Shown here piece after piece: positions 57,601-60,600 of a stretch of DNA of 64,000 nucleotides; positions within the stretch are counted from its first letter, which is position 1, and each line of letters begins with the position of its first letter. Location: assembly GCF_003991155.1 (NCBI RefSeq), contig NZ_CP031293.1; one strand, written 5' to 3'. The position numbers were made by a program. Origin of the DNA: Escherichia coli. GTDB taxonomy: Bacteria; Pseudomonadota; Gammaproteobacteria; Enterobacterales; Enterobacteriaceae.

Positions 57601-60600
57601 CAGGGGAAATATCCGGTGCATCTTTCCGGCGGTCAGCAACAGCGTGTTTCCATCGCCAGGGCGCTGGCGATGGAACCGGAAGTTTTACTGTTTGATGAAC
57701 CTACCTCGGCGCTCGATCCTGAACTGGTAGGCGAAGTGTTGCGTATTATGCAGCAACTGGCAGAAGAGGGGAAAACCATGGTGGTGGTGACCCACGAAAT
57801 GGGCTTTGCTCGCCATGTTTCTACTCACGTCATTTTCCTCCATCAGGGGAAAATAGAAGAAGAGGGCGCGCCAGAACAGTTATTCGGTAACCCGCAAAGT
57901 CCTCGTCTGCAACAGTTCCTTAAAGGTTCGCTGAAATAATTTCCTCTCCGGTGGCTAACGCTGCCGGAGTATTTTCAAGGGGAATTTGCGAGTCCGCTTC
58001 CGCTGAAATGTAAAAGTTGCAGTCCGTTAAAAATAGTTCTGAATTCGCTGTCCAAAGATAAAAACTGCCTGCTGCATTGGGTGTTAATCGTGGTTATTGT
58101 CGCGTCATCTTAAATTTGAGGGGTGACGGAACGCCATGACAATATCGACAACTTCCACGCCGCATGATGCGGTATTTAAATCTTTTTTACGCCATCCAGA
58201 CACCGCCCGGGATTTTATTGATATTCATCTCCCCGCGCCGCTGCGCAAACTGTGTGATTTAACGACGCTTAAACTGGAACCAAACAGTTTTATTGATGAA
58301 GACCTGCGGCAATATTATTCCGACCTCTTGTGGTCTGTGAAAACGCAGGAGGGAGCGGGTTATATTTATGTGGTGATAGAGCACCAAAGTAAGCCGGAAG
58401 AATTAATGGCTTTTCGCATGATGCGCTATTCCATTGCGGCGATGCAAAACCATCTTGATGCAGGCTATAAAGAGCTTCCATTGGTGATCCCGATGCTGTT
58501 TTATCATGGTTGCAGAAGTCCTTATCCTTATTCACTCTGCTGGCTTGATGAATTTGCCGAGCCTGCTATAGCCCGCAAAATATATTCATCGGCTTTTCCG
58601 CTGGTGGATATTACCGTGGTGCCGGATGACGAGATTATGCAACATCGCAAAATGGCGCTGTTGGAGTTAATTCAGAAACATATTCGTCAGCGCGATCTGT
58701 TGGGATTAGTCGACCAAATTGTTTCGCTGCTAGTTACAGGAAACACTAATGACAGGCAGCTAAAAGCCCTGTTTAATTACGTATTACAAACGGGAGATGC
58801 CCAGCGTTTCCGTGCATTTATTGGTGAGATAGCGGAACGCGCACCACAAGAAAAGGAGAAACTGATGACTATTGCTGACAGATTACGTGAAGAAGGGCGG
58901 AATGATGGATTAATTCTGGGCAAACGCGAAGAAGCCCTGCGTATTGCTCAGGAGATGCTGGAGAGAGGTTTAGACCGAGAGTTAGTTCTGACGCTGACCC
59001 GACTTTCACCAGAGGAGCTTCTGAACCAGAAGCAGTGACGTCTGTGGAACTTTATTCTAATTAAATCTGTCTCTTGCAGTCATGACCGCAAGAGACAGTC
59101 ATGTAGTAAACGTAACTATATTCCTCACATTTATTTATCCCTTTCTTCAATGTATTTTAACTTGTCGCTTATATATGTTTTTCTTTATAAATAAAATATT
59201 CATAATCCATATGATTTAAATGTGAGTTCCTACAATCTGTTCTTTAATTGTCTGCCACGGCAAGTCCGTTACTGGCAAAAGTGCAAAGGTTTTTCCAGAT
59301 GATAATATTACTATTTCTCTGTACAAAAACATAAGGGAAATAAAATGAACAGTTATCAGAACATGTTACTCAATGATGGAAATATTGCCGAATCCGATTA
59401 CCTTGCCTGTTCCGGTATAAATGAAAATCATGATGAGTATTTCGGTGCCGTTGCGCCGCCGATTATTCAAACCAGTCTTTTTGTGCAGAAGAATTACCAG
59501 CAGTATTGTGATGATATGCGTCACGAAGCCCAGCGTTACATATACAGTCGCGGCTTAAATCCAACCGTAAGTATGGTTGAAACCAAACTTGCTTTGCTGG
59601 AGGGGGGTGAAGAGGCGCGGTGCTTTGCATCAGGCATGGGGGCAATCAGCGCAGTGATGGTCGGTTTGTTAAACAGCGGTGACCATATTTTATTAGTTAA
59701 TCAAATCTATGGTCCGGCTATCGAATTAGTTAAAAACCTGGCAAAAAAATACCATATTGAATATGACATTATCTCCAACGGCGATATCAATATTATTGAA
59801 CAAAAAATCAAACTGAATACCCGAATGATATACGCTGAGTCACCCGGCACCATGACAATGCAGATTGTTGATTTACAGGCGATAGCTCAACTGGCGACCC
59901 GTTATGGGATTATCACCGCAATTGATAACACCTGGCCGACACCGCTATTTCAAAAACCGTTAAGTCTGGGATTTGATATTGTCATTCATTCCTGCACAAA
60001 ATATCTCGCCGGGCACAGTGATGTGTTAGCTGGTGTGGTAATCACCCGCCGTGAATTGATGAGCATCATTCGTGATTTCTCGCATCAGCTATTAGGTGCC
60101 GTGCTTTCGCCGTTTAGCGCCTGGTTACTGTTACGTGGTATACGAACACTCCCGATCAGAATGGCAACGCATCAGCATAACGCGATTAACGTTATTGAAT
60201 GGTTAGCTACTCGTGATGAGGTGGAAAATATACGTCATCCTCTCTGCGCTACAGATAAGGAAAAAGAGATAATTCGTCGCCAGATGTGTGGCTTTTCAGG
60301 ACTGTTTAGTTTCGAATTAAAAGGAGCCGGCTTTGAGGAAGTGAAATGCTTTATCGATGCCTGCCGTATTTTCAAACCGGGCTGTAGCTGGGGCGGCTAT
60401 GAAAGCCTGATTATCTCACCTAACCGTGGTTATAATCAGTCTGCACTGGATGATGCGGAGATCCCGCGCGGATTAATTCGTCTCTCGCTTGGGCAGGAAA
60501 ATGCCGCTCTTTTAATTGCCGATCTGGAGCGTGCTTTTGACTCGCTAAGGACGAAACCATGACAATAAATCAGCCATCCTTTAGCTCGGCGATGATCATT

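What the first reader, a model, noticed from the sequence alone, without database searches (positions are those of the whole stretch)
58136..59038. rpnB (yfcI) carries in-frame internal AUGs that could yield a C-terminal small protein
Rpn-family (YhgA-like) nucleases have been reported to encode small C-terminal proteins from internal in-frame starts that act as intragenic antitoxins (recalled from the literature, not verified here). In this gene, in-frame ATGs at 58637 and 58652 ([13 protein letters not shown]...) would give C-terminal products of about 130 aa. No strong Shine-Dalgarno is evident, so this is tentative.
Basis: inference. Interest (0 to 1): 0.4.

Follow-up and report, generated by a model that had tools for sequence, protein, structure and literature searches.

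The report
rpnB internal antitoxin start, relocated

Summary
The ORF 58136-59038 (+) is E. coli rpnB (yfcI), a PF04754 / PD-(D/E)XK nuclease. They are ordinary Met codons. They have no Shine-Dalgarno (-3.3 and +0.4 kcal/mol), lie in structured mRNA, sit inside the conserved nuclease domain, and are replaced by Val/Ile/Leu/Ala/Thr codons in 32% and 53% of 79 related loci.

The real internal start is ATG 58865 (M244). It has a canonical AAGGAG 6 nt upstream (-8.7 kcal/mol, the best in-frame site in the gene) and the least structured mRNA in the gene. ATG is kept in 79/79 loci. Codon choice is forced at the SD (Lys240 always AAG, Glu241 GAG in 70/78).

The 57-aa product matches the published RpnB-S antitoxin of K-12 (Zhong et al. 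2023, PNAS). Its predicted three-helix fold has the RpnA-S crystal structure (7TH0) as its top match. Synonymous-site constraint also points to an internal promoter (-35 ATGACA 58749, -10 TTTAAT 58772).

This allele has one more four-residue repeat than K-12 and a different C-terminal end, next to a 3-kb strain-specific insert.

Verdict: the concept is right and already known; the proposed sites and product size are wrong. Interest is low.

The parts
58136..59038 (+). rpnB (yfcI) full-length CDS, RpnB-L: 300-aa PD-(D/E)XK recombination-promoting nuclease (the toxin)
   Evidence: ORF. PF04754 E=2.2e-91 over residues 8-209. TIGR01784 Rpn family 191 bits against a cutoff of 52. 100% identical to genes annotated rpnB in E. 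coli genomes. D11, D63, E82, Q84, R94 and D165, the residues mutated in RpnA, are all present.
58865..59038 (+). rpnB-S: nested in-frame CDS from M244, 57 aa ([57 protein letters not shown]), the intragenic antitoxin
   Evidence: ATG in 79/79 related loci and Met in 110/110 protein homologs. K-12 D29 counting fixes the start at M244. phmmer hit to the 7th0_A RpnA-S chain, residues 1-53 against 1-45, E=1.3e-3. AF2 model pLDDT 84.8 with three helices; Foldseek top hit 7TH0, prob 1.00, TMt 0.73.
58853..58858 (+). Shine-Dalgarno AAGGAG for rpnB-S (codons K240-E241), 6-nt spacer to the ATG
   Evidence: Duplex with the 16S 3' end is -8.7 kcal/mol, the best in-frame site. The motif sits at a fixed position in nearly all of 79 loci. 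K240 is AAG in 74/74 loci against 30% AAG at other Lys codons (p=4e-36). E241 is GAG in 70/78 (p=3e-18). The -30..+30 region folds at only -1.9 kcal/mol, against -8.4 to -15.6 at the other in-frame ATGs.
58749..58754 (+). candidate -35 hexamer ATGACA of the internal rpnB-S promoter (inferred)
   Evidence: ATGACA in 69/79 loci. Synonymous third positions of codons 204, 205 and 206 are almost fixed (NCT 79/79, AAT 72/73, GAC 75/75; nominal p 5e-13 to 2e-36). This is the lowest 3-codon third-position entropy window in the gene.
58772..58777 (+). candidate -10 hexamer TTTAAT of the internal rpnB-S promoter, 17-nt spacer; predicted TSS near 58784 (inferred)
   Evidence: TTTAAT in 72/79 loci. Codons 212-214 form the second-lowest third-position entropy window. 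No indels across codons 204-216 in any locus. The paper reports a dRNA-seq TSS inside all rpn genes. The simple promoter scan did not list this site because position 2 of the hexamer is T, not A.
58895..58930 (+). G-x-x-x four-residue repeat zone in helix 1 of RpnB-S and the RpnB-L tail (G254 RND G258 LIL G262 KRE). It has one unit more than K-12.
   Evidence: 4-aa indel against K-12, starting at RpnS residue 12. RpnS tail lengths form a ladder of 53/57/61/65/69/73/77 aa in 127 of 145 distinct homolog tails. The paper places the repeats 8-20 residues after the initiating Met.
   Evidence: SD energy -3.3 and +0.4 kcal/mol. Across 79 loci the mean is -2.5 and -0.4, and none reaches -6. ATG in only 54/79 and 37/79 loci, with GTC, GTA, ATA, GCG and similar codons elsewhere. 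They lie directly after the PDDEI motif in predicted helix 165-181 (the model is low-confidence).

Best explanation
rpnB is a gene-within-a-gene toxin-antitoxin unit. The full ORF (58136-59038) encodes RpnB-L, a PD-(D/E)XK DNA endonuclease that is toxic when overexpressed.

A second, shorter transcript probably starts at an internal sigma-70-type promoter (-35 ATGACA 58749-58754, -10 TTTAAT 58772-58777, TSS near 58784). Ribosomes recruited by the AAGGAG at 58853-58858 start at ATG 58865 (M244). This yields RpnB-S, a 57-aa three-helix protein identical to the C-terminal tail of RpnB-L.

RpnB-S binds RpnB-L through the shared long first helix and blocks its nuclease activity. The number of four-residue G-x-x-x repeats in that helix sets partner specificity. 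This allele has three Gly-spaced units where K-12 has two.

What is shown here: the sequence signals, their conservation, and the fold similarity. What is shown in the literature for the K-12 ortholog: expression of the small protein and its antitoxin activity. What is inferred: promoter identity, expression of this particular allele, the binding mode, and any role in phage defence.

The ATGs at 58637 and 58652 are not start sites.
For: - Identity: PF04754 E=2e-91; annotated rpnB in 100%-identical genomes.
- Start site: AAGGAG plus ATG 58865 is the best in-frame SD, -8.7 kcal/mol. The mRNA is least structured there (-1.9 kcal/mol, unpaired probability 0.75).
- Conservation: ATG in 79/79 loci at 60-97% aa identity, with mean SD energy -8.9. 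Flanking synonymous sites vary freely, while K240 is always AAG and E241 is mostly GAG.
- Literature: RpnB-S was detected in K-12 by Ribo-seq and SPA tag, blocks RpnB-L toxicity and SOS induction, and is specific for its own partner. The D29 position fits only a start at M244.
- Fold: 7TH0 (RpnA-S) is the top hit by sequence and by fold. The model has a long helix 3-33 plus two short helices.
- Repeats: ladder of tail lengths in steps of 4 aa.
- Promoter: the strongest synonymous constraint in the gene coincides with hexamers that each match the consensus at 5 of 6 positions, 17 nt apart.
Against: - No expression data exist for this allele or strain. All evidence here is from sequence.
- The -10 candidate TTTAAT lacks the highly conserved A at position 2, and the consensus scan did not report it. 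I could not obtain the published TSS coordinate.
- The p-values for codon constraint treat 79 phylogenetically related loci as independent, so they are nominal.
- The full-length AF2 model was poor (pLDDT 60), so domain-boundary statements are weak.
- Foldseek and phmmer E-values to 7TH0 are modest (2e-2 and 1.3e-3) because the protein is very short.
- Phage defence was shown only for plasmid RpnP2, not for RpnB. PADLOC has no matching model.
Confidence: 0.9

Rival explanations
1. One reading: internal initiation at ATG 58637 and/or 58652 produces a C-terminal protein of about 130 aa that acts as the antitoxin, possibly in addition to the 57-aa product.
For: Both ATGs exist and are in frame. 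M168 is Met in 68% and M173 in 47% of related loci. Initiation without an SD does occur in E. coli (general knowledge).
Against: - SD energies are -3.3 and +0.4 kcal/mol, and none of 79 loci reaches -6 at either site.
- The positions are replaced by GTC, GTA, ATA, ATC, GCG and CTC codons that cannot start translation.
- Local mRNA is structured, -15.0 and -11.1 kcal/mol.
- The sites lie upstream of the inferred internal promoter, so only the weak full-length mRNA could serve them.
- The product would begin mid-helix, just after the PDDEI motif inside the conserved transposase_31 domain.
- The published RpnB-S D29 position is incompatible with these starts.
Confidence: 0.03
2. No functional internal product: the AAGGAG-ATG at 58853-58867 and the conserved synonymous sites reflect only amino-acid or codon constraints on the full-length protein (K-E-x-L-M) or an RNA or regulatory element, and this allele makes only RpnB-L.
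For: K240, E241 and M244 are also conserved as amino acids. M91, M103 and M274 are likewise invariant without being starts. There is no direct expression evidence for this allele.
Against: Amino-acid conservation does not explain the exclusive use of AAG (74/74 against 30% elsewhere) and of GAG, nor the uniquely unstructured mRNA. The K-12 ortholog has identical sequence from 58796 to 58869, covering the SD and ATG. Across the promoter-to-ATG region (58749-58867) it differs only at three synonymous sites, all outside the hexamers. That ortholog demonstrably makes RpnB-S. Unopposed RpnB-L is more toxic than the wild-type gene.
Confidence: 0.04
3. RpnB-S is made, but only by internal ribosome entry on the full-length rpnB mRNA. 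The conserved ATGACA-17-TTTAAT block is not a promoter and could be, for example, a regulator binding site or a codon-level artefact.
For: The -10 candidate lacks the A at position 2, and the scan found no promoter there. Full-length RpnB-L is detectable in K-12, so the long mRNA exists.
Against: [quoted passage not shown] Four of the six most constrained synonymous sites in the gene fall exactly in the two hexamers, with fixed 17-nt spacing and no indels. Each hexamer matches the consensus at 5 of 6 positions.
Confidence: 0.15

Closest known systems
RpnB-L / RpnB-S of E. coli K-12 (Zhong et al. 2023, PNAS 120:e2307382120; PMC10400941)
   Same: It is the same locus, downstream of hisP. Overall identity is 95%, and the first 243 residues differ at only 2 positions. 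K-12 matches the window exactly from 58796 to 58869, which covers the SD and ATG, and both candidate promoter hexamers are unchanged. Both have M244 as the internal start and the same [12 protein letters not shown]-terminus of RpnS.
   Different: The tail differs. This allele has one extra four-residue unit ([12 protein letters not shown] against EEGAMQGK) and a different C-terminal end ([16 protein letters not shown] against MMVTRLSPDDLIAQSH), giving 57 aa against 53 aa. DNA homology ends 18 nt before the stop because a 3,055-bp segment replaces 82 bp of K-12. This exact tail allele (>=99% identity) occurs in only 63 of 5,426 complete E. coli genomes.
RpnA-S (PDB 7TH0), the structurally solved member
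   Same: The start is at M244 with the RBS in K240/E241. The fold is a three-helix bundle with a long first helix. 7TH0 is the best sequence and fold match of the RpnB-S model: 43% identity, Foldseek prob 1.00, TMt 0.73.
   Different: It is a paralog at another locus, and RpnA-S does not neutralise RpnB-L. It is 49 aa against 57 aa. The dimer interface was not modelled here.
Other bacterial genes-within-genes with in-frame internal starts, such as Cas10d/Cas11d of type I-D CRISPR, cited in the same paper
   Same: A small C-terminal product is made from an SD-driven in-frame internal start and partners with the full-length protein.
   Different: Cas11d has a complementary (assembly) role rather than an antagonistic (antitoxin) role, and the protein families are unrelated.

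Membership tests
Rpn (YhgA-like, PF04754/TIGR01784) recombination-promoting nucleases | Transposase_31 domain with a PD-(D/E)XK core | tested here: met
   PF04754 E=2.2e-91, residues 8-209 matching profile positions 1-202 of 203. TIGR01784 scores 191 bits against a cutoff of 52.
Rpn (YhgA-like, PF04754/TIGR01784) recombination-promoting nucleases | Catalytic and functional residues defined in RpnA (D11, D63, E82, Q84, R94, and the PDDEI motif with D165) | tested here: met
   The residues are listed in Kingston et al. 2017. The window protein has D11, D63, E82, Q84, R94 and P163-D-D-E-I167. All are invariant or nearly invariant in 101 homologs.
RpnL-RpnS intragenic toxin-antitoxin (Zhong et al. 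2023) | In-frame internal translation start with an RBS at the beginning of the variable C-terminal tail | tested here: met
   AAGGAG-N6-ATG at 58853-58867 (codon 244), -8.7 kcal/mol. Conserved in 79/79 loci with forced AAG and GAG codon choice. Homologous to the RpnA M244 start.
RpnL-RpnS intragenic toxin-antitoxin (Zhong et al. 2023) | Internal transcription start site giving a short, more abundant transcript | tested here: inconclusive
   Candidate -35 ATGACA and -10 TTTAAT are supported by extreme synonymous constraint.
RpnL-RpnS intragenic toxin-antitoxin (Zhong et al. 2023) | RpnS folds as a three-helix bundle with a long first helix (RpnA-S crystal structure) | tested here: met
   AF2 model has pLDDT 84.8 with helices 3-33, 38-45 and 49-56. 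The Foldseek top hit is 7TH0 RpnA-S, prob 1.00, and the next hit has E=3.2. Dimerisation was not modelled.
RpnL-RpnS intragenic toxin-antitoxin (Zhong et al. 2023) | [quoted passage not shown] | tested here: met
   The 4-aa indel against K-12 starts at RpnS residue 12. Tail lengths follow 53+4n in 127/145 distinct tails. Both 296-aa and 300-aa alleles occur in E. coli.
RpnL-RpnS intragenic toxin-antitoxin (Zhong et al. 2023) | The small protein is actually expressed and neutralises the toxicity, SOS induction and nuclease activity of the long protein | not testable with these tools
   This was shown experimentally for K-12 RpnB. No data exist for this allele.
Anti-phage defence systems | Protection against phage infection | not testable with these tools
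   Protection was shown only for plasmid-borne RpnP2. There is no PADLOC model hit. No defence genes were seen next to rpnB here; its neighbours are the his transporter genes and metabolic genes.

The most novel reading that the evidence does not exclude
The 3' end of rpnB, which is the RpnS antitoxin module, may be a recombination junction. A 3,055-bp metabolic islet (PLP trans-sulfuration enzyme plus NhaC-type antiporter) replaces 82 bp, including the last 18 nt of rpnB, and so rewrites the C-terminus of both toxin and antitoxin. Repeat number (2 or 3 G-x-x-x units) assorts independently of the islet. If RpnL nuclease activity itself promotes such junction events, as Zhong et al. speculate for downstream rpnSs genes, or if the 3-repeat chimeric tail defines a non-cross-neutralising specificity class, this locus would be a natural example of tail diversification.
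Probability: 0.1. Interest if true: 0.45.

Novelty: already known. Interest (0 to 1): 0.15.

Why it matters
The RefSeq annotations I looked at (K-12 MG1655 and strain 2016C-3878) list only the long rpnB CDS. The nested antitoxin is therefore invisible to annotation-based analyses, and a reader working from sequence alone can pick the wrong ATG.

Four criteria together separate the real nested start from ordinary Met codons: a canonical SD, unstructured mRNA, forced synonymous codons, and an invariant ATG across paralogs. The same test can be applied to other candidate genes-within-genes.

Biologically this adds nothing new about Rpn systems. It documents a minority tail allele and proposes explicit promoter hexamers for the RpnS transcript.

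Tried and rejected
- Simple sigma-70 scan of 57900-59350: it found no internal + strand promoter upstream of 58865, because the filter requires A at position 2 of the -10. The candidate came from synonymous-site analysis instead.
- Supplements of Zhong 2023 and Meydan 2019, and the Thomason 2015 dRNA-seq paper, are not held. I could not read the published iTIS or TSS coordinates and used the D29 clue instead.
- Full-length AF2 model from 101 homologs: pLDDT was only 60. It was used only for secondary structure and not for fold search.
- PDB phmmer gave designer PPR proteins at E about 1e-30. I rejected this as a summation artefact over 9-11 identical repeats, each about 10.7 bits with a per-domain E of about 6-7.
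- PADLOC: no hits.
- Search for a separate downstream rpnSs-like gene or a second rpn copy in the 64-kb window: none found.
- DNA-level tandem repeat in the tail: none found. The three G-x-x-x units have diverged, so the extra unit is not a recent slippage event.
- Flanking direct repeats for the 3-kb islet: none convincing.
- Other strong SD matches: the out-of-frame ATG 58368 (-9.8) has no + strand ORF of at least 30 aa starting there. The in-frame GTG 58370 (-7.7) follows residues 71-72, which are variable in homologs. I did not pursue either.
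Full report
**1. What is at the coordinates**

The + strand ORF 58136..59038 encodes 300 aa. It follows hisQ-hisM-hisP, whose terminator-like hairpin is at 57946-57969. The protein matches Pfam PF04754 (Transposase_31, YhgA-like) at E=2.2e-91 over residues 8-209. It also matches NCBIfam TIGR01784, the Rpn family. The DNA is 100% identical to genes annotated rpnB in many complete E. coli genomes. It is 95% identical in protein to K-12 RpnB/YfcI.

**2. The observation**

ATG codons do sit at 58637 (codon 168) and 58652 (codon 173), in frame, and would give 133-aa and 128-aa products. In-frame ATGs are expected by chance. The gene has nine internal Met codons.

I scored every in-frame ATG/GTG/TTG for pairing of its -20..-2 region with the 16S rRNA 3' end.
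- ATG 58865 (codon 244) scores -8.7 kcal/mol. Its AAGGAG at 58853-58858 lies 6 nt upstream. This is the best in-frame value and is better than the annotated start (-8.5).

Folding -30..+30 around each in-frame ATG gives -1.9 kcal/mol at 58865, against -8.4 to -15.6 at all the others. The SD-to-start region there has a mean unpaired probability of 0.75, against 0.30-0.50 elsewhere. The gene therefore does contain a textbook internal initiation site.

**3. Literature**

Zhong et al. 2023 (PMC10400941) report that all five K-12 rpn genes show an internal initiation signal after Onc112 or retapamulin treatment. Chromosomal SPA tagging detects all five small RpnS proteins, and dRNA-seq shows a TSS inside every rpn gene.

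For RpnB specifically, removing RpnB-S expression makes the gene more toxic. RpnB-S in trans reduces RpnB-LS-dependent SOS induction. The effect is lost with a stop codon 'at D29' of RpnB-S, and RpnB-S does not protect against RpnA.

The supplements are not held, so I located the start from the D29 clue. In K-12 RpnB, counting from M244 puts D at residue 29 ([29 protein letters not shown]). Counting from M168, M173 or M256 gives V, T and T. RpnA-S also starts at M244, with its RBS in codons K240/E241.

**4. Comparative test of the three candidate starts**

*Protein homologs.* In 110 protein homologs at 64-97% identity, Met244 is invariant. Position 168 is M in 74, V in 26, L in 8, and A or I in 2. 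Position 173 is M in 84, V in 22 and I in 4.

*DNA loci.* I fetched 80 related loci from one-genome-per-species contigs; 79 sequences including the window were usable.
- Codon 244 is ATG in 79/79. AAGGAG sits at a fixed offset in nearly all. The mean SD energy is -8.9 kcal/mol, and 92% of loci are at or below -6.
- Codon 168 is ATG in 54/79, and otherwise GTG, GTC, GCG, CTG and similar. Codon 173 is ATG in 37/79, and otherwise GTC, ATA, GTA and similar. Mean SD energies are -2.5 and -0.4, and none reaches -6.

*Codon choice.* The flanking codons (CCN CAR CAY ... NNN YTN) vary freely. Lys240 is AAG in 74/74 loci, against 272/892 at other Lys codons (p=4e-36). Glu241 is GAG in 70/78, against 663/1605 elsewhere (p=3e-18). 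These p-values are nominal because the loci are related. Even so, the pattern shows selection on the nucleotide sequence of the SD, not only on the protein.

**5. Internal promoter (inferred)**

Third-codon-position entropy across the 79 loci averages 1.39 bits. The lowest values in the whole gene are at K240 (the SD), T204, D206, N214, F228 and F213. The two lowest 3-codon windows are codons 204-206 and 212-214.

These windows spell ATGACA (58749-58754, exact in 69/79 loci) and TTTAAT (58772-58777, exact in 72/79). The two are 17 nt apart, and no locus has an indel between them. Codon-choice tests at these sites give nominal p-values from 6e-9 to 2e-36. Each hexamer matches the sigma-70 consensus at 5 of 6 positions.

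This fits the published statement of an internal TSS. It predicts a TSS near 58784 and a leader of about 80 nt.

Two caveats apply. The -10 lacks the usual A at position 2, so the simple scan missed it. I also could not check the published TSS coordinate.

**6. The product**

RpnB-S is 57 aa.
- phmmer against PDB sequences finds the 49-residue RpnA chain of 7TH0, aligned from residue 1 (E=1.3e-3).
- An AF2 model built from 52 diverse tails has pLDDT 84.8. It shows a long helix (3-33) and two short helices (38-45, 49-56).
- Foldseek against the PDB returns 7TH0 'E. coli RpnA-S' as the only meaningful hit: prob 1.00, TMt 0.73, 43% identity. The next hit has E=3.2.
- The precomputed Pfam family on the tail is PF27070, HTH_Rpn_C.

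The full-length model was poor (pLDDT 60). Its secondary structure places M168 and M173 inside helix 165-181, right after the PDDEI motif, and places M244 at the start of helix 240-253, after a short linker.

**7. What is particular to this allele**

Against K-12, residues 1-243 differ at two positions. The tail differs by a 4-residue indel ([12 protein letters not shown] against EEGAMQGK), beginning at RpnS residue 12, and by its last 15 or so residues. This is the published hypervariable four-residue repeat zone, which lies 8-20 residues after the Met.

Homolog tails form a length ladder of 53/57/61/65/69/73/77 aa (127 of 145 distinct tails). Full-length proteins cluster at 296, 300, 304 ... 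320 aa. There is no DNA-level tandem repeat in this allele.

Across 5,426 complete E. coli genomes the tail region (58840-59038) is far more variable than the rest of the gene.
- Identity is at least 99% in 63 genomes, 95-99% in 589, 90-95% in 575, and 80-90% in 3,500.
- About 700 genomes have no megablast match.
- By contrast, a query covering the whole gene and its flanks gave 95-99% identity in 5,361 genomes.
- In the sampled rows, matches at 94.5% identity or above span 181 nt (the 300-aa type). Matches at 88% or below span 169 nt (the 296-aa type).

Homology to K-12 stops at 59020, which is 18 nt before the stop codon. Window 59021-62075 (3,055 bp: a Cys/Met-metabolism PLP enzyme and an NhaC-type antiporter) replaces 82 bp of K-12, including the ends of both rpnB and yfcH. 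Only 68 complete genomes carry the islet. It is found with both 296-aa and 300-aa rpnB alleles.

**8. Verdict**

The specific ATGs and the size of about 130 aa are wrong. The real nested gene is 58865-59038 (57 aa), with its SD at 58853-58858 and a probable promoter at 58749-58777. Novelty: already known. Interest: low.

Noticed in passing
window 59021-62075: A 3,055-bp segment replaces 82 bp of K-12: the last 18 nt of rpnB, the 47-nt spacer and the last 17 nt of yfcH. It carries a trans-sulfuration/Cys_Met_Meta_PP enzyme (59345-60562) and an overlapping NhaC-type Na+/H+ antiporter. Only 68 of 5,426 complete E. coli genomes have it, and no flanking direct repeats were found.
   Followed up: partly
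window 59067-59098: A near-perfect palindrome with 16-nt arms (CTGTCTCTTGCAGTCA / TGACCGCAAGAGACAG) lies 29 nt after the rpnB stop, inside the islet. It is terminator-like on the minus strand. From memory, its first 10 nt resemble the IS50 inside end; I did not test this.
   Followed up: no
L085 (GCA_021462025.1, CP061253.1), locus 2598-4001: This is an islet-carrying E. coli whose rpnB has a frameshift near codon 78, before catalytic E82. The frameshift kills RpnB-L, while the internal promoter candidate, SD and the whole RpnB-S ORF stay intact. It is a natural toxin-dead, antitoxin-intact allele.
   Followed up: partly
window 58904-58999 (RpnB-S residues 14-45): The helix-turn-helix part of RpnB-S resembles the pentatricopeptide-repeat consensus (DGL..GK.EEAL.I..EM.E.G). 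Designer PPR proteins give whole-sequence E-values of about 1e-30 only because about 10 identical repeats each add about 10.7 bits. This is probably convergence of helical hairpins.
   Followed up: partly
window 58817-58819 (codon F228): The third position of Phe228 is also strongly constrained (TTT in 74/77 against 76% elsewhere). It lies about 35 nt into the predicted rpnB-S leader. No explanation was found.
   Followed up: no
window 58349-58373: An SD-like GGAGGGAG inside rpnB is followed by an out-of-frame ATG (58368, -9.8 kcal/mol) and in-frame GTG codons 79 and 80 (-7.7 and -5.5). No + strand ORF of at least 30 aa starts at 58368, and residues 71-72 that encode the motif vary among homologs, so it is probably fortuitous.
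   Followed up: partly
window 62013-62047: A perfect 17-nt-arm palindrome (CTTTCATGCCTGGCAAT / ATTGCCAGGCATGAAAG) lies between the convergent nhaC-like gene and yfcH. It is likely a bidirectional terminator at the right edge of the islet.
   Followed up: no
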